Below, one piece after another: positions 2,969 to 43,755 of a DNA stretch of 64,000 nucleotides (position 1 is the stretch's first letter; each line of letters opens with the position of its first letter). Source of the DNA: a virus; IMG/VR virus record IMGVR_UViG_3300048080_000202, positions 1,859 through 65,858 of that record. One strand, 5' to 3'. Both the position numbers and the translations under genes were made by a program. The notes below the pieces were generated by a model, which did no database searches, was not told where the DNA came from, and worked only from the letters and a program-made list of their open reading frames with translations.

Positions 2969-3413
2969 GCGGGGTGGCGAAGCCGAGGGTTAGGAGGAAC
3001 TCACCACCGGGGCGGACTCTGCGAGTCTTTCCGGAGTGAGCTTTCATGTGGGAGAGAATGCGTTGAGTGGAGAGGGGAATGGTTTCATCACAGACATCAC
3101 AGCGGAAGTCTTGGAGTTCCACGCCGGTTTCTGCGAGGCGTGCCCACCCAGGCCATTCCTTCTCGGATTCCTTGAGGGTGAGTTTGAAACCTCCCCCATG
3201 TTCCGGGACGTGAGCAAGCATGGTGTCCACGCTGCGTGGGAGGCGAGTGTGGCAGGACATATCTCGGCGATGAATTGGGGCGTAGCCGAGGCAGAGGATT
3301 TCTTTGGGGTGAAGACGGGCTTTGATAAAAGCCAGCCAGTTGGTGAGGGACTTGGGAGAGTCGGAAGCTCTCACTGGTGCGATATCGGGCATTGGGACTC
3401 CAATGAAAATCAA
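2937..3413 (-). CDS. Hypothetical protein with C2H2-type zinc finger
   Basis: 'CDVCDETIPLSTQRILSHMKAH'; lies in operon order between the capsid-associated gene and the GT9 gene. Confidence 0.6.
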   Translation of the reverse strand: MIFIGVPMPDIAPVRASDSPKSLTNWLAFIKARLHPKEILCLGYAPIHRRDMSCHTRLPRSVDTMLAHVPEHGGGFKLTLKESEKEWPGWARLAETGVELQDFRCDVCDETIPLSTQRILSHMKAHSGKTRRVRPGGEFLLTLGFATPLAANDTDDDI

Positions 3414-25863: not shown

Positions 25864-25952
25864 GCTGGCATGGTAAAGAGGGGAGTTACATCATACTGCT
25901 ATTATGTGGGGGCGCAAGCTCCCAGTCGCTCCCTTCGTTTGTTCCTGCCAGC
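25864..25952 (+). ncRNA. Y-RNA-like RNA 1
   Basis: GCTGGCA/TGCCAGC terminal stem, TGGTAAAG/CGTTTGTTCC internal loop, GAGGGGAG/CTCCCTTC upper stem and a GCAA tetraloop hairpin. Confidence 0.75.
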
Positions 25953-25959
25953 AAAAGTT

Positions 25960-26032
25960 CTTGGGTGTGGTGAAGTTGGGGATTCCTTCATTTTGGAATG
26001 ATAAAGAGCCCCGGCGTTTGTGCCCACCCAAG
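25960..26032 (+). ncRNA. Y-RNA-like RNA 2
   Basis: CTTGGGTG/CACCCAAG terminal stem, TGGTGAAG/CGTTTGTGCC loop and GTTGGGG/CCCCGGC upper stem. Confidence 0.7.
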
Positions 26033-26038
26033 GAGAGA

Positions 26039-26134
26039 TTCCAACATGGTGAAGAGTGGAAATCCTTCATTGGAGCAGGAATGCTGCTTCGGCAAGCGCC
26101 TGCATTTAGGTCCGCTCGTTTGTTCCTGTTGGAA
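26039..26134 (+). ncRNA. Y-RNA-like RNA 3
   Basis: TTCCAACA/TGTTGGAA terminal stem, TGGTGAAG/CGTTTGTTCC loop, GAGTGGA/TCCGCTC upper stem and a UUCG hairpin; ends 17 nt before the Ro60 start. Confidence 0.75.
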
Positions 26135-26151
26135 GCATTAAAGGAGATAAT

Positions 26152-27507
26152 GTGAAAATCAATCATAAACCCGCTCCGATATTCACTCATGAAGGTGGAA
26201 GGGCTTCCAGGACGTCGGATGTTAATACGCTTCGACGGTTGGTGTTGAATTGTCTTCTTTGGGAACCGACGTTTTATGAAAGTGGCAATGCGATTGCGGC
26301 ACAGATTGCAAAGTTGGTGTCTAAGATTGATCCTCAAACTGTTGGTGATCTGGCGAAAGAAGCGCGGAATAATATGTATCTGCGGCATGTCCCATTGTTC
26401 CTTGCAAGGGAGTTGGCAAGAAAAGGTAATGGCTCGATTGTGGCAGATGTGTTGGAGGAAGTTGTACAACGTGCGGATGAGTTAACGGAGTTTCTTGTTA
26501 TTTATTGGAAGGACGGAAGGAGCCCTTTGAGTGCGGGGGTCAAACGCGGACTCGCCAAGGCATTCCGAAAGTTCAACGTCTATCAGCTTGCGAAGTATGA
26601 TCGCGCAAACACGGTGAGGTTGAGGGATGTATTGTTTCTTACCCATCCCAAACCCAAGGACCAAGACCAACAAGACGTGTGGGACAAGTTGGTGCAAAAT
26701 GAGCTTGAGGCTCCAGACACTTGGGAGGTAGCACTGAGCGCGGGGATGAACAAGAAAGAAACATGGGAGAGATTATTGAGGGAAAAGAGGCTGGGTGGAT
26801 TGGCTACTCTCCGAAATCTCCGAAACATGTTGTCTGTTAGTGTGGATGTGGAGTTAATCAAGGAACGTTTGAATGACTCCATGGGAAAGATATTTCCGTA
26901 TCGGTTTATCACAGCAGCTAAGTATGCCCCGAAATTGGAGGCTGCTCTCGAACACGCAATGCTTGGAGCGATTGATAAAGAGTTGGTTCTCAAAGGGAGA
27001 ACATGCCTTGTTGTGGATGTGAGTGGGTCGATGGATGGAGCAATGAGCAAGAAATCTGAAGCCACAAGAATTGACACTGCATGTGGATTGGCAGTATTAC
27101 TTCGTGAGGTGTGTGAGGACTTGGTGGTATATGCAACTGGGGGAGATGATGGAAGGAACATTCACGCCACAGCGGAGGTGCCTGCAAGACATGGATTTGC
27201 ATTGAGAGATGCAATTGATGGATTAAAGGGTAAATTGGGTGGTGGGGGAATATTTCTTGCTCAATGTATGGATTATATTGCCAGTAAGGAGAAAGCGGAA
27301 TTCGAAAGAGTGATTGTGTTGACAGATGAACAGGATTGTGATAGAAATCGCACAGCGATGTCAGCGAAGAAATTGGGGAAGGTGAATTATACATTGAATT
27401 TAGCTTCGTATCAGAATGGTACTAGCTATGGGAGCGGTTGGCATCTTGTGAATGGCTGGAGCGACCAAGTAGTGAGATATATTCAATTGTTGGAGAGTGA
27501 GCAATGA
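26152..27507 (+). CDS. rsr: Ro60-related (TROVE + vWA) RNA-binding protein
   Basis: 'THEGG', 'LRRLVLNCLLWEPTFYE', 'YQLAKY...LRDVL.L.HPKP' and 'TWE..LS'; vWA MIDAS 'VDVSGSM' and 'VLTDEQ'. Confidence 0.95.
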   Translation: MKINHKPAPIFTHEGGRASRTSDVNTLRRLVLNCLLWEPTFYESGNAIAAQIAKLVSKIDPQTVGDLAKEARNNMYLRHVPLFLARELARKGNGSIVADVLEEVVQRADELTEFLVIYWKDGRSPLSAGVKRGLAKAFRKFNVYQLAKYDRANTVRLRDVLFLTHPKPKDQDQQDVWDKLVQNELEAPDTWEVALSAGMNKKETWERLLREKRLGGLATLRNLRNMLSVSVDVELIKERLNDSMGKIFPYRFITAAKYAPKLEAALEHAMLGAIDKELVLKGRTCLVVDVSGSMDGAMSKKSEATRIDTACGLAVLLREVCEDLVVYATGGDDGRNIHATAEVPARHGFALRDAIDGLKGKLGGGGIFLAQCMDYIASKEKAEFERVIVLTDEQDCDRNRTAMSAKKLGKVNYTLNLASYQNGTSYGSGWHLVNGWSDQVVRYIQLLESEQ

Positions 27508-40746: not shown

Positions 40747-41267
40747 AACACAGTAGTTATGAGTGTGATAGATGTCATAAAACACACCTAACCCAGACAT
40801 ATTTTATCTCAATGCATAATACAACATTTGCACTAAGCCGATATGATCTTTGTGAAGAGTGTTTTAAGTTTATCAAAACTTGGATACTTAGACCATGAAA
40901 CTCGTCCCCTGTTCCTATGTTGGCTGCCGGTATCGTCGTGATAATTGGGAGCAAAAACCTGACGAACAGCCACGAGCCCATCAACAAGTCGAAGTCCCCG
41001 ACAACCACGAAGGCCCCGCATACTGCTCAACCGTGTGTCAGGTGTGTGATAATTTATCATGAGTTATAGTCGGGGAGAATTTTACGTGTATGACGACGGG
41101 GAATATATGAATATTTCAGTCGGCAGATATTCAAAAGCTCATACTATGTATACTCCAAATTTGACAAAGGAAGACTGGGATAAGATTGATCCAGAGTATT
41201 TGAGGATTCCTTTGAGAGTTTTTGATAAAATTGTGTTGGAACGTTTTAAAGATATTGTGGGGACATA

Positions 41268-41591
41268 ATGACTGACATCTTCGATAGAGAATTTCCGTTA
41301 GAGCACATTCTCGGGTGTGTGGGTAAAGGGTGGCATTCTATTGTCACCCGTCTTATTAGTGATTTGAAAGAACTTGGATGGGATGGAAATCTCAATCAAA
41401 TCAAGGAAAAGTTTGGTGGCTTGAGATTCTATATTGGTGCGGGGACAAAGGAGATATATGATAGGATCGCTAAAGCTGGGGATGAATCCTTAAAAACATG
41501 TGAAATGTGCGGGAAGTTAGGGAAGCCAAGAGGAACTTGGTACGTTAAAACACTTTGTGCGAAGTGTTTTCGAAGGGGACAAAAGGGGTAG
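41268..41591 (+). CDS. Conserved phage protein
   Basis: 'GWHSIV...QIKEKFGGLRFY...CEMCG' pattern. Confidence 0.65.
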   Translation: MTDIFDREFPLEHILGCVGKGWHSIVTRLISDLKELGWDGNLNQIKEKFGGLRFYIGAGTKEIYDRIAKAGDESLKTCEMCGKLGKPRGTWYVKTLCAKCFRRGQKG

Positions 41592-41594
41592 GCT

Positions 41595-41996
41595 TTGCAA
41601 AAACTGGATAAACGTTATATTGCTGGATTCTTTGATGGGGAAGGAAGCATTGGAATATATCGTAATAAAGGTTCCAAGGACGACCGTTATTTATCTGGCT
41701 ACAGAAGACCTTGTTGGGTTCGTGTTGTTACTATAAATGTTGCTTATAAATCAACTTTAAGCTTGATTCACAAGCAATTTGGAGGTTCATTTAGATTATT
41801 ATACGGTAGAGATAAAAGATGGAAGCCAATCTGGTCTTGGAGTATTGGGTCAAAAGAAGGTATCAAAAGATTTTTAACCTTTATACTATCCTACATAAGA
41901 GAAAAGAAGAAACAAGCTAAAGTAATGATAAGAGTTTGTAATAACAAGTTGAATGATGAAATTGCAGCAAAGCTGTTAAAAGAGTTAAAAAAATGA
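41595..41996 (+). CDS. LAGLIDADG homing endonuclease (single motif)
   Basis: 'YIAGFFDGEGSIGI'; AT-rich and free-standing. Confidence 0.9.
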   Translation: MQKLDKRYIAGFFDGEGSIGIYRNKGSKDDRYLSGYRRPCWVRVVTINVAYKSTLSLIHKQFGGSFRLLYGRDKRWKPIWSWSIGSKEGIKRFLTFILSYIREKKKQAKVMIRVCNNKLNDEIAAKLLKELKK

Positions 41997-42943
41997 TAAG
42001 CTCATACCCAAAAGTGTGGAATCTCGGTCACCGAGCAATCCGGGATCTATTCACCGCCCCGTGTGTAGTCGAAGAAAAAGTTGATGGCTCTCAAATCAGC
42101 TTTGGAATGATTGATGGTGAGCTTCATATCCGCAGTAGGGGTGCCACGATCAATCCCGACGCCCCAGATAATATGTTTAGTCTTGGGGTAACAGAGATCA
42201 AGAAACTTGCACCAATGTTGCATCCGGGGTGGATATATCGAGGGGAGTATCTGAGAAAACCAAAACACAACACCCTCACATATTCTCGAAACCCAAATAA
42301 ATATATCATTATTTTTGATATCCAAACTGGAGAAGAAACATATCTTGATGCGACCGATCGCCGAAACGAATGCTCAAGTGTGGGGTTAGAGGTCGTACCA
42401 ATTCTTGGAATGTTCGGGGGAGGTCTCCTTACAACTGATATATTGAAGGGTTTGTTAGAGCAAGAGAGTTTCTTGGGGGGCGTAAAGATCGAAGGTGTGG
42501 TCGTAAAACCCGTTGATTATAATCTCTTTGGTGAAGACAAGAAAGTTTTGATGGGGAAGTATGTCTCGGAAGCATTCAAGGAAAAGCATTCGAATGAGTG
42601 GAAAAATAGTAATCCAAGCAATGGGGACATTCTCCTCAACCTTGGTGAAACGTATCGAACAGTACCAAGATGGGAAAAAGCTGTGCAACATTTGCGGGAT
42701 GCTGGGACGTTGGAAAACTCTCCACGAGACATCGGGTCTATTATTCTTTCGGTAAAGAAAGATGTGCAGGAAGAGTGCGAAGACGAAATCAAAGATGCCT
42801 TATGGCGTTGGGCATGGCCACACATTCAAAGGAAGATTGTGGCAGGGGTGGCCGAGTGGTACAAAGAACGTTTATTAGAACAACAATTTGCGCAGGACGG
42901 GGTTCGAGACCCCGCACTGGCAGATGCCGGTGATGGTGTATAA
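41993..42943 (+). CDS. ATP-dependent RNA ligase (Rnl2-like family)
   Basis: Motif I 'EEKVDGS', III 'YRGEY', IIIa 'IFDI', IV 'EGVVVK' and V 'MGKYV'. Confidence 0.8.
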   Translation: MISSYPKVWNLGHRAIRDLFTAPCVVEEKVDGSQISFGMIDGELHIRSRGATINPDAPDNMFSLGVTEIKKLAPMLHPGWIYRGEYLRKPKHNTLTYSRNPNKYIIIFDIQTGEETYLDATDRRNECSSVGLEVVPILGMFGGGLLTTDILKGLLEQESFLGGVKIEGVVVKPVDYNLFGEDKKVLMGKYVSEAFKEKHSNEWKNSNPSNGDILLNLGETYRTVPRWEKAVQHLRDAGTLENSPRDIGSIILSVKKDVQEECEDEIKDALWRWAWPHIQRKIVAGVAEWYKERLLEQQFAQDGVRDPALADAGDGV

Positions 42944-42959
42944 CTGGGAGCACGGCGCG
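42889..42959 (+). ncRNA. Circularly permuted tRNA-like element (T-arm, acceptor hairpin, D-arm; YrlA-type topology)
   Basis: CGGGG-TTCGAGA-CCCCG T-arm, CACTGGC-AGAT-GCCGGTG acceptor hairpin, GTGT-ATAACTGGGA-GCAC D-arm, closed by TGCGC/GCGCG. Confidence 0.7.
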
Positions 42960-42965
42960 ACGACC

Positions 42966-43040
42966 GTGACCGTAGCTTAATGGTAAAACGATAGTTTGTG
43001 GGACTATTATATGAGGATTCAAATTCCTTCGGTCACCCCA
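42966..43040 (+). tRNA. tRNA-His(GTG), atypical
   Basis: GTGACCG/CGGTCAC acceptor, C73, encoded CCA, and ATAGT-TTGTGGG-ACTAT anticodon arm. Confidence 0.8.
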
Positions 43041-43101
43041 TATTTGTAGTACTATTTTGGTTCGCGAACACCAAATAATTCGCAAATAAGGAGGAAGTAA
43101 A

Positions 43102-43566
43102 TTGGCTGATTCATTTGATTATGTACACTTGGGAGACATTGATCTCTCCTATAAACCCATTCCTGCGGCGGTGTATACCCTTCAGGTGGTAAAGGGAGAG
43201 ACTAAGGAATTCCAATACAAGAAAGGAGAACGTGCAGGGACTTCTGGAAGTATGCTGAAGTTCCAGTTTGCAGTGACGGACCACGCGGAGTATTCGGGGC
43301 GTCGGCTGTTTGCAGCGTTCTTCCCGAATGACTTTGATTTGAGGAATCTCCGTCGTCTCCAAGACGCCACGGGGGTGGTTCAAGAGCAAGGGGAACCCCT
43401 CACCGAGTGGGCGGTTCGTCTTGCAGAAATCAAACCCACATTCAAAATCCCGGTGCTTCTCACAAACGCGAAGGATTTCTCGCAGAAGGGGAAGGATCGG
43501 TTAGATGAAACTGGGAATCCTATTCCCGAGAACACACTGAATTGGAAGGAGGTTTCACCGGCGTAG
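43102..43566 (+). CDS. Single-stranded DNA-binding protein (DUF669-like)
   Basis: 'PIPAAVY.LQV...MLKFQF.V...YSGRRLF' OB-fold pattern in the recombination/replication cluster. Confidence 0.65.
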   Translation: MADSFDYVHLGDIDLSYKPIPAAVYTLQVVKGETKEFQYKKGERAGTSGSMLKFQFAVTDHAEYSGRRLFAAFFPNDFDLRNLRRLQDATGVVQEQGEPLTEWAVRLAEIKPTFKIPVLLTNAKDFSQKGKDRLDETGNPIPENTLNWKEVSPA

Positions 43567-43678
43567 GATTGGGCAAGGTCGAAGGGAAACCTTCATTGTA
43601 GTTGGCCTAAACCCAACGGTGGCGGGGATTCCAGGCACCCTCAAGGCCCCCTTAATGCCAAAAAGCCACCGACTTTTT

Positions 43679-43755
43679 GGGGTTGTCGCCAATTGGAAGG
43701 CCGGGTGGGGTAACTCCTACTCCATATGAAGGTTCGAATCCTTCCAACCCCACCA
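43679..43755 (+). tRNA. tRNA-like RNA with non-canonical anticodon arm (no readable anticodon)
   Basis: GGGGTTG/CAACCCC acceptor plus ACCA, D-arm GCC-AATTGGAA-GGC and T-arm GAAGG-TTCGAAT-CCTTC. The anticodon arm is an 8-bp stem with a TAAC loop. Confidence 0.7.

What the first reader, a model, noticed from the sequence alone, without database searches (positions are those of the whole stretch)
42889..42959. Circularly permuted tRNA mimic written into the last codons of the RNA ligase gene
Seen: a T-arm (TTCGAGA loop) comes first, then the acceptor 3' strand, a 4-nt AGAT loop, the acceptor 5' strand and a D-arm with a GG loop, all closed by TGCGC/GCGCG. It overlaps the ligase's last codons (AQDGVRDPALADAGDGV*) and ends 6 nt before tRNA-His. 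Established: this T-before-D topology is the tRNA-like domain of YrlA Y RNAs, and permuted tRNA genes exist in some algae and archaea. Inference: this may be the tRNA-mimic module missing from the three Y-like RNAs, or a ligase substrate, decoy or feedback element on the ligase mRNA.
Basis: partly seen in the sequence, partly recalled or inferred. Interest (0 to 1): 0.8.

Follow-up and report, generated by a model that had tools for sequence, protein, structure and literature searches.

The report
Stand-alone back-to-front tRNA mimic in phage
The flagged 71 bases are a real, conserved small RNA shaped like a tRNA with its arms in rearranged order and no anticodon; it matches the tRNA-like half of bacterial Y RNAs but lacks their Ro60-binding handle, and its overlap with the RNA ligase gene is an accident of one phage's gene order.

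Summary
Observation confirmed. Window 42889-42959 folds alone into the described permuted cloverleaf: closing stem, 4-nt variable region, T arm, 7-bp acceptor hairpin capped by AGAU, D arm, closing stem. It ends 6 nt before tRNA-His and covers the last 17 ligase codons.

It is not a one-off. Two related uncultured phages carry the same architecture upstream of the same SSB-like gene (L028, L031) at 57-73% identity. Nine of 21 pairs change on both sides; with two distant members it is 13 of 21, and no shuffle of 500 reaches this.

The ligase link is incidental. In L028 the element follows a phosphoesterase-like gene, with the ligase about 17 kb away. In L031 it overlaps an unrelated 67-aa ORF in another frame. 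The closest relative, L024, has neither the element nor the extra codons.

The layout is co-linear with the tRNA-like domain of YrlA. My model finds genuine YrlA domains beside phage Ro60 genes (CcrColossus, L122). The element lacks the Ro60-binding stem, lies 15 kb from Ro60, and is missed by Rfam's YrlA model.

The scan has noted similar permuted modules in other phages. Verdict: new variant of a known kind.

The parts
42889..42893 (+). Closing (anticodon-stem-like) helix, 5' strand UGCGC; pairs with 42955-42959
   Evidence: MFE fold. All 5 pairs show changes on both sides across 5 family members.
42894..42897 (+). Variable-region equivalent, AGGA (AGGA in L028, UAGA in L031)
   Evidence: Alignment A4.
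42898..42914 (+). T arm: 5-bp stem CGGGG/CCCCG and T loop UUCGAGA
   Evidence: Aligns to tRNA model positions 38-71 as a truncated hit of 13.4 bits. Three stem pairs covary.
42915..42932 (+). Acceptor-like 7-bp hairpin CACUGGC/GCCGGUG capped by AGAU
   Evidence: Seven bp with a 4-5-nt cap in L028 and L031 too. Three to four pairs change on both sides.
42933..42935 (+). 3-nt linker AUG (AUG in L028, AUA in L031); tRNA and YrlA have 2 nt (UA)
42936..42953 (+). D arm: stem GUGU/GCAC and a 10-nt loop with GGG; holds the ligase stop codon UAA at 42941-42943
   Evidence: In the MFE but not the centroid. The stem is invariant in window, L028, L031 and L122. L135 has GUCU/GGAC, one compensatory pair.
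42954..42959 (+). G (position-26 equivalent) and closing helix 3' strand GCGCG
42960..42965 (+). 6-nt spacer ACGACC. RNase P cleavage at the tRNA-His 5' end would make this the 3' tail of the element (inferred).
42966..43040 (+). tRNA-His (GUG) with encoded CCA; present only in this phage's version of the slot
   Evidence: ARAGORN. Rfam tRNA 53.2 bits. Absent from L024, L028 and L031.
41993..42943 (+). Rnl2-type RNA ligase ORF (316 aa). Residues 300-316 (AQDGVRDPALADAGDGV) are read from the element and are not conserved.
   Evidence: PF09414 and phrog_548 cover residues 2-296. Homologs are about 300 aa and end at ...QF(E/D).
43055..43083 (+). Conserved leader motif (TTTTGGTTCGCGAACACCAAATAATTCGC) before the ribosome-binding site of the next gene; right anchor of the variable small-RNA slot
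   Evidence: Identical in L024, L028 and L030. Single copy in the window.
43102..43566 (+). 154-aa OB-fold, SSB-like gene; the constant downstream neighbour of the element in the three core phages
   Evidence: Homologs P0122-P0127. Synteny. AlphaFold model pLDDT 83, best PDB matches PrgE and SsbA at E about 1e-3.

Best explanation
Window 42889-42959 encodes a conserved, autonomous tRNA-shaped RNA module of the YrlA type. It has a T arm, a 7-bp acceptor helix closed by a small loop, and a D arm. A 5-6-bp helix closes the module where a tRNA would have its anticodon stem, and there is no anticodon loop.

Shown: the architecture is conserved with compensatory substitutions in related phages. It resembles the tRNA-like domains of Ro60-linked phage Y RNAs. 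It lacks a Ro60-binding stem. The overlap with the ligase ORF is a lineage-specific junction by-product.

Inferred: the T loop and the D-loop GG form a tRNA elbow, so the RNA acts as an L-shaped tRNA mimic that cannot decode. Most likely it is a ligand, decoy or substrate for tRNA-recognising factors. It is co-transcribed with the replication and repair genes, and RNase P processing of the adjacent tRNA-His would release its 3' side. Its 7-bp acceptor helix could let RNase P open the cap, as happens in Mycobacterium smegmatis YrlA.

Whether it cooperates with the phage's Ro60 and its three handle-only Y RNAs is open.
For: Fold of the isolated 71-mer. Rejoined halves are accepted by ARAGORN. 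The element is the only positive of 1034 hairpins in the window, against 1 positive in 40 shuffled windows.

Homologs came from synteny plus a single-sequence covariance model. L028:2269-2340 scores 54.5 bits (E 7e-13) and L031:2299-2371 scores 17.4 bits. With the three-sequence model they score 94, 86 and 80 bits.

Covariation: 98% of cells pair, 9 of 21 pairs change on both sides, and 0 of 500 shuffles reach this. Controls with partners slid by 1-3 columns fall to 31-55% paired. With L122 and L135 added, 13 of 21 pairs change on both sides, including one in the D stem.

Independent MFE folds of L028 and L031 recover the closing helix and the T arm; the acceptor hairpin appears in the L028 fold and in the L031 centroid, only partly in the L031 MFE.

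The ORF overlap is not conserved. L028 has a stop 5 nt upstream. L031 uses another ORF and frame. L024 lacks the element and its ligase ends ...KQFE-stop.

The layout is co-linear with the Rfam YrlA consensus. The model hits the YrlA domains of CcrColossus (33 bits, E 1e-8) and Alcala. It also hits L122, which lies about 210 nt upstream of a TROVE/vWA Ro60 gene inside a long-stem Y RNA. For YrlA biology and the RNase P precedent see PMC4201824 and 10.1101/312249.
Against: Thermodynamic support is modest: z -2.4, -0.3 and -0.6. The D stem is missing from the window and L028 centroids and from both L028 and L031 folds.

The rejoined element passes ARAGORN only at the default threshold. Its 5' half alone gets no Rfam tRNA hit.

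There are only three close members and two distant ones. The alignments were fitted to the model, which favours the structure.

Rfam YrlA gives no hit at E<=10. There is no Ro60-binding stem.

In two of three phages ribosomes read into the element, which would unfold it on translated mRNAs.

No Ro60 homolog from contigs of the length of the L028 or L031 phages appeared among the top 120 hits (inconclusive).
Confidence: 0.6

Rival explanations
1. It is a cis-acting mRNA processing or stability element. A tRNA-like structure at the end of the upstream cistron is recognised by RNase P or other tRNA-processing enzymes. This punctuates the polycistronic transcript, or protects the new 3' end of the upstream mRNA, and there is no trans-acting role.
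For: In all three core phages the element abuts or overlaps the end of the upstream ORF, although those ORFs are unrelated: ligase, phosphoesterase-like, and a 67-aa ORF. No promoter or terminator signal separates it from its neighbours. The 7-bp acceptor helix fits the RNase P requirement noted for M. smegmatis YrlA (PMC4201824). In the window, an RNase P cut at tRNA-His would leave the element as the 3' terminal structure of the ligase mRNA.
Against: In L135 a related module lies downstream of the SSB-like gene, not upstream. The closest structural relatives are trans-acting Y RNA domains. Full tRNA elbow features are more than a simple protective hairpin needs. An RNase P cut in the window's cap would remove the ligase stop codon.
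Confidence: 0.2
2. It is a non-functional relic: the junction of two tandem or rearranged tRNA genes (3' half of one, 5' half of the next), carried along with tRNA-His by recombination.
For: Tandem tRNA junctions mimic this topology, and Chen et al. filtered them out as false positives (PMC4201824). In my pattern search 51 of 97 hits were such junctions. The slot holds variable tRNA cargo: tRNA-His here, a tRNA-like gene in L030, nothing in L024. The ARAGORN score is marginal.
Against: No tRNA halves flank it. Upstream is ligase coding sequence homologous to L024, and 6 nt downstream tRNA-His begins. The acceptor and closing helices pair perfectly, and pairing is kept through 9-13 compensatory pair changes at 57-73% sequence identity. 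A decaying relic would not do that.
Confidence: 0.07
3. It is a ligase-specific element: a substrate, decoy or feedback device on the ligase mRNA. For example, RNase P cleavage in the cap would strip the stop codon and down-regulate the ligase.
For: In this phage the ligase ORF ends inside the D loop, and the putative RNase P site (42925/42926) lies upstream of the stop codon.
Against: The association is not conserved. In L028 the ligase is about 17 kb away on the same contig. L031 has an intervening ORF. L024 and 22 other ligase loci lack the element.
Confidence: 0.05
4. It is a true circularly permuted tRNA gene that is processed, by joining of its ends and opening of the acceptor cap, into a decoding tRNA, as in Cyanidioschyzon or Thermofilum.
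For: The rejoined halves form a cloverleaf. An RNA ligase and a nucleotidyltransferase-like gene are present in the phage.
Against: The flanks cannot build a canonical anticodon loop: ACGACC plus upstream U has no U33 and no purine 37. The flanks differ completely in L028 and L031. There is no bulge-helix-bulge motif and no splicing endonuclease context. The linker has 3 nt and the D arm is atypical.
Confidence: 0.02

Closest known systems
YrlA (Y RNA-like A; Rfam RF02553; Chen et al. 2014, PMC4201824; Wang et al. 2018, 10.1101/312249), tRNA-like effector domain
   Same: Same order of parts: short anticodon-like helix, variable region, T arm with UUCGAGA-type loop, loop-capped acceptor helix, D arm with GG, closing strand. 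It is co-linear with Rfam model positions about 23-87. A model of the element detects real YrlA domains next to phage Ro60 genes. A tRNA gene lies next door, as reported for some Y RNAs.
   Different: There is no Ro60-binding stem or GNCGAA-type motif; the closing helix stops after 5-6 bp. It lies 15.4 kb from Ro60, not within 4 kb. Rfam gives no hit. The D stem is GUGU/GCAC, not GCUC/GAGC. The linker has 3 nt, not UA. The acceptor helix has 7 bp, not about 6.
Mycobacterium smegmatis YrlA (7-bp acceptor stem, cleaved by RNase P, then CCA-added; PMC4201824)
   Same: A 7-bp capped acceptor helix stacked on a 5-bp T stem, which is the feature Chen et al. link to RNase P cleavage.
   Different: Cleavage of the phage element is untested. 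The element has no Ro60 handle.
Unnamed permuted tRNA-like modules in phage tRNA gene clusters
   Same: T arm, 7-bp capped hairpin and D arm with the same GUGU...UGGNAGCAC D arm. They are not called by ARAGORN and are absent from Rfam.
   Different: They match only the core of the model (positions 7-67, 22-30 bits), have A-rich flanks in place of the closing helix, a 2-nt linker, and lie inside tRNA arrays.
Circularly permuted tRNA genes of Cyanidioschyzon merolae and Thermofilum pendens
   Same: The 3' half precedes the 5' half, and the acceptor helix is initially closed by a loop.
   Different: Those mature into decoding tRNAs through a circular intermediate. Here no anticodon loop can be formed and the flanks are not conserved.
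tRNA-like 3'-end modules processed by RNase P (mascRNA / MALAT1 type, Rfam RF01684)
   Same: A tRNA-like structure embedded at the end of a longer transcript. The 3' half of the element gives a sub-threshold 23.6-bit match.
   Different: mascRNA has the normal arm order and an open acceptor stem, and it is eukaryotic. The match reflects only the T arm.

Membership tests
YrlA (Rfam RF02553) | tRNA-like domain with the T arm 5' of a loop-capped acceptor-like helix 5' of a D arm, closed by an anticodon-stem-like helix | tested here: met
   Fold. Conserved with covariation. Co-linear with the Rfam consensus.
YrlA (Rfam RF02553) | Conserved tRNA tertiary nucleotides: T loop UUCRANN with G53-C61, GG in the D loop, UA linker, Levitt pair | tested here: inconclusive
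   The T loop and GG are present in all members. The linker is AUG/AUA, not UA. The Levitt-pair equivalent cannot be assigned with confidence.
YrlA (Rfam RF02553) | Ro60-binding module: extended terminal stem with a GNCGAAN0-1G-type motif flanking the tRNA-like domain | tested here: not met
   The flanks do not pair beyond one extra base pair in the window, L028 and L031. No motif was found. L122, by contrast, has 9-bp and 7-bp outer stems.
YrlA (Rfam RF02553) | Encoded within about 4 kb of Ro60 on the same strand | tested here: not met
   Ro60 is at 26152-27507. The element is 15.4 kb downstream on the same strand.
YrlA (Rfam RF02553) | Scores with the Rfam covariance model (gathering score 69 bits) | tested here: not met
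   No hit at E<=10 in a 401-nt search or in the whole 75-kb genome. Phage YrlAs themselves score only 30-50 bits.
YrlA (Rfam RF02553) | Bound by Ro60/Rsr; modified by TruB and DusA | not testable with these tools
   Needs pull-down and modification mapping.
Permuted tRNA gene (decoding tRNA after processing) | Rejoined halves score as a bona fide tRNA | tested here: inconclusive
   ARAGORN calls it only at the 100% threshold, against 102-120% for real phage tRNAs. The 3' half scores 13.4 bits and the 5' half gets no hit with Rfam tRNA.
Permuted tRNA gene (decoding tRNA after processing) | The termini can form an anticodon loop or processing motif that is conserved | tested here: not met
   The flanks are unrelated in the three phages and give no U33/R37 loop.
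Tandem-tRNA junction (artefact class) | The T arm and D arm belong to two complete neighbouring tRNA genes | tested here: not met
   No tRNA overlaps the element. Upstream is ligase coding sequence shared with L024. A weak 15.6-bit 'tRNA' at 42842-42922 borrows the conserved EWYK codons.

The most novel reading that the evidence does not exclude
This may be a 'split Y RNA'. The phage encodes the two modules of a YrlA separately: three handle-only Y RNAs in front of Ro60, and a free tRNA-like effector module 15 kb away. The free module would work with the Ro60 particle in trans. Alternatively it would work independently of Ro60: after RNase P opens its cap, it becomes a two-piece, anticodon-less tRNA that engages the phage's RNA-repair enzymes or soaks up host tRNA-targeting defence factors.
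Probability: 0.15. Interest if true: 0.8.

Novelty: new variant of a known kind. Interest (0 to 1): 0.58.

Why it matters
The effector that binds the tRNA-like domain of bacterial Y RNAs is still unknown (10.1101/312249). A naturally detached tRNA-like domain, conserved on its own, would show that the domain has a function that does not need covalent linkage to the Ro60 handle. This phage also keeps Ro60 with handle-only Y RNAs. The element is therefore a compact 71-nt bait for finding that partner.

It also adds to growing evidence that phages carry many anticodon-less tRNA look-alikes that standard tRNA finders and Rfam miss. For annotation, it shows that the 17 extra ligase residues are read-through into an RNA gene and are not part of the enzyme.

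Tried and rejected
1. Rfam at gathering and E<=10 thresholds gave no YrlA or other family for the element. The half-by-half truncated search gave only 13.4 bits for the 3' half.

2. A canonical-order pseudo-tRNA at 42842-42922 (15.6 bits) is rejected. Its '5' half' is the conserved EWYK coding sequence, which is also present in ligases without any element.

3. Exact or IUPAC searches for the element, the tRNA-His and the leader motif found nothing in viral, metagenome and genome collections. blastn against 50,697 phage records found nothing.

4. Relatives of the ligase (22 IMG/VR contigs, searched whole) have no homolog of the element. The hits in GC-rich L011 are noise.

5. Close relatives of Ro60 and of the 154-aa gene could not be found by the search for related loci.

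6. Whole-record searches of the L028 and L031 contigs were not possible. The indirect Ro60 check is inconclusive.

7. Trans pairing between the element and the individual Y RNAs is not above shuffled controls (z -0.3 to +0.6). The concatenated Y region scored z -2.6, which I judged uninterpretable.

8. Handle-like words in the ligase 3' coding region (GUGGUACAAAGA, CGUUUAUU) are judged coincidental. They sit side by side and follow from conserved codons.

9. An 11-bp pairing of 42845-55 with the tRNA-His 3' end is about what chance gives.

Full report
**What is in the window.** The window is part of a 75-kb uncultured phage. The ORF at 41993-42943 is an Rnl2-type RNA ligase: PF09414, with phrog_548 covering residues 2-296 of 316. 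The parts are a closing helix UGCGC/GCGCG, AGGA, a T arm CGGGG-UUCGAGA-CCCCG, a 7-bp acceptor-like hairpin capped by AGAU, a 3-nt linker, a D arm GUGU-loop-GCAC with GGG in the loop, one G, and the closing strand. Six nucleotides later tRNA-His begins at 42966. The ligase stop codon lies in the D loop.

**Is it more than chance when taken alone?** The isolated 71-mer folds into this permuted cloverleaf as its minimum-free-energy structure: -31.5 kcal/mol, z -2.39. When the two halves are rejoined with any 7-nt loop, ARAGORN calls a tRNA, but only at its default threshold. Real phage tRNAs tolerate thresholds of 102-120%.

I ran a permuted scan of every 7-bp hairpin. It found this site as the only positive of 1034 hairpins in the window. 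It found 1 positive in 40 dinucleotide shuffles of the window, and one GC-rich coding false positive in 158 kb of other phage DNA.

Rfam finds no family for the element and no YrlA anywhere in the genome. The 3' half aligns to tRNA positions 38-71 at 13.4 bits. The 5' half gets nothing. A weak canonical-order 'tRNA' at 42842-42922 (15.6 bits) borrows the conserved EWYK codons of the ligase and is not real. On its own, then, the structure is suggestive and nothing more.

**Comparative evidence decides it.** Twenty-two IMG/VR ligase relatives end near ...QF(E/D) and have no such element, even when their whole contigs are searched. The closest ligase relative, L024 (73% identity, 300 aa), has the same gene order. 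Its ligase ends ...KQFE-stop, and only 41 nt separate it from the next gene. The alignment shows that window 42891 to about 43054 is an extra block that starts exactly after codon 299. The block comprises the element, the spacer, tRNA-His and 14 nt, and it is flanked by a 5-nt repeat ATTTG.

Searching by the downstream 154-aa gene gave further relatives. A covariance model built from the window element alone then hit L028/L029:2269-2340 (54.5 bits, E 7e-13) and L031/L032:2299-2371. With a three-sequence model the three score 94, 86 and 80 bits, and the next best hit in 0.95 Mb scores 32 bits.

The three sequences are 57-73% identical and keep every helix. 98% of cells are paired, and 9 of 21 pairs change on both sides: 3 in the closing helix, 3 in the T stem and 3 in the acceptor helix. 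None of 500 shuffles reaches this. Structures with partners slid by 1-3 columns fall to 31-55% paired. Independent MFE folds of L028 and L031 recover the closing helix and the T arm; the acceptor hairpin appears in the L028 fold and the L031 centroid.

Two distant members bring the count to 13 of 21 covarying pairs. This includes a G-C to C-G swap in the otherwise invariant D stem. One caveat is that the alignments were fitted to the model. Another is that the two distant members were found by the model itself.

**The ligase overlap is incidental.** In L028 the element starts 5 nt after the stop of a 177-aa gene with a weak (sub-threshold) phosphoesterase-family match. That phage's ligase lies about 17 kb away on the same contig. 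In L031 the element overlaps the end of an unrelated 67-aa ORF, read in a different frame from the window. L024, L030 and L031 all continue ...TTT GA(G/A) after the phenylalanine codon, whereas the window has TTT GCG. The window's junction is therefore derived, and the 17 extra residues are read-through into an RNA gene.

What stays constant is the downstream neighbour, a 154-aa gene. Its AlphaFold model (pLDDT 83) best matches OB-fold SSB proteins, PrgE and SsbA, at E about 1e-3. The gene sits in an exonuclease/Sak4/SSB/DNA-polymerase module. The slot in front of it is a hot spot for small RNAs. It is empty in L024. It holds a tRNA-like gene plus a hairpin in L030, the element plus hairpins in L028 and L031, and the element plus tRNA-His in the window.

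**Comparison with known systems.** Chen et al. 2014 and Wang et al. 2018 describe YrlA as a Ro60-binding stem plus a tRNA-like domain. In that domain the T stem-loop precedes a capped acceptor-like stem-loop and the D stem-loop. It may derive from dimeric tRNA transcripts. The M. smegmatis YrlA, which has a 7-bp acceptor stem, is cut by RNase P and CCA-added.

The Rfam YrlA consensus, seen on Xanthomonas phage Alcala and Caulobacter phage CcrColossus, is co-linear with the element from the inner 4-bp helix through the variable region, T arm, capped helix, UA linker and D arm. My model hits those genuine YrlA domains: CcrColossus at 33 bits, E 1e-8, full length.

Its best hit outside the core family, L122, lies about 210 nt upstream of a TROVE/vWA Ro60 gene. 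It sits inside a long-stem Y RNA and carries the same GUGU/GCAC D stem.

The window element lacks everything outside the tRNA-like domain. Pairing stops one base pair beyond the closing helix in all three phages. It is 15.4 kb from Ro60. It therefore works like, and probably descends from, a YrlA tRNA-like domain, but it fails the membership features that define a Y RNA.

A pattern built from the shared T loop and D arm found 97 IMG/VR sites. Of these, 51 are ordinary tandem-tRNA junctions. The other 46 are free permuted modules, mostly inside phage tRNA clusters. Rfam does not recognise the two tested directly, and they match only the core of my model. Earlier notes of this scan describe such modules in other phages.

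**Mechanism.** The following are shown:
- a conserved, autonomous, tRNA-shaped fold with no anticodon loop;
- probable co-transcription with flanking genes, since no promoter or terminator signal intervenes.

The following are inferred:
- elbow formation by the T loop and the D-loop GG;
- recognition by tRNA-binding factors;
- 3'-end definition in this phage by RNase P processing of tRNA-His;
- possible RNase P opening of the 7-bp capped helix.

I found no pairing above chance between the element and any single Y RNA.

Rival readings are scored separately: a cis processing or stability element, a relic junction, a ligase-specific device, and a true permuted tRNA. The relic and ligase readings are disfavoured by covariation and by the variable upstream partner.

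**Limits.** Only three close family members are known. Exact-match searches of viral, metagenome and genome collections found no more. Function is inferred from shape and relatives.

Noticed in passing
window 43679-43755; L030:996-1084; L031:3192-3262: The CCA-ended tRNA look-alike with an aberrant anticodon arm, downstream of the SSB-like gene, has counterparts at the same position in L030 and L031. L030 has the same acceptor and T arm with a long insert in the anticodon region. L031 is called by ARAGORN as a tRNA with a 2-nt 'anticodon'. It appears to be a second conserved anticodon-less tRNA mimic in this phage group.
   Followed up: partly
window ~43617-43672; L028 ~2980-3030; also L024 and L030: A conserved hairpin RNA with a CUUAAUGCC motif (GGCGGGG...GGCACCC...CUUAAUGCC...GCCACC) lies between the SSB-like gene and the tRNA look-alike in four phages. 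It has no family assignment.
   Followed up: no
window 42965-43040: tRNA-His has discriminator C73 and an encoded CCA, but the base at -1 is C, not the G-1 normally encoded in bacterial tRNA-His genes. G-1 would have to be added after transcription, or this tRNA does without it.
   Followed up: no
window 43055-43083: A 27-29-nt leader motif (TTTTGGTTCGCGAACACCAAATAATTCGC) just before the ribosome-binding site of the SSB-like gene is identical in four phages whose proteins differ by 15-27%. It is a likely operator or translational control site.
   Followed up: partly
window 40747-41996: Relative to L024, where the Sak4-like gene abuts the ligase, this phage has about 1.25 kb inserted. The insert holds two small ORFs and a LAGLIDADG homing endonuclease that overlaps the ligase start.
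   Followed up: no
L030:152-224: In a relative, a canonical-order tRNA-like gene (anticodon loop AUUGUAU, possibly tRNA-Thr UGU; ARAGORN 'tRNA-???') overlaps the ligase stop codon. A strong hairpin follows it. This is another case of an RNA gene abutting the ligase end.
   Followed up: partly
L122:1650-1880: A 134-kb phage carries a complete Y RNA upstream of a TROVE/vWA Ro60 gene. The Y RNA has 7-bp and 9-bp outer stems around a tRNA-like domain with the GUGU/GCAC D stem. A second Y-like RNA without a tRNA domain follows and shares the word GCGCGACGGA.
   Followed up: partly
L041:6521-7000; L035, L037, L043-L047 and others: 46 'free' permuted T-arm / capped 7-bp hairpin / D-arm modules occur in IMG/VR phage contigs, mostly inside tRNA arrays. 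Four lie in tandem about 700 nt downstream of a Ro60-like gene in L041. ARAGORN does not call them, and Rfam finds no family for the two tested directly (L035, L064).
   Followed up: partly
window 42845-42855 with 43027-43037: An 11-bp complementarity joins the ligase coding sequence (GGGGUGGCCGA, where the usual Leu-Pro codons are Val-Ala) to the 3' acceptor strand of tRNA-His. It dominates the fold of the 206-nt region. By rough count it is about what chance gives.
   Followed up: no
window 42855-42885: The ligase 3' coding region contains side-by-side words (GUGGUACAAAGA, CGUUUAUU) that resemble the two strands of the handle shared by the three Y RNAs at 25864-26140. I judged this coincidental, because it follows from the conserved EWYKER codons.
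   Followed up: partly
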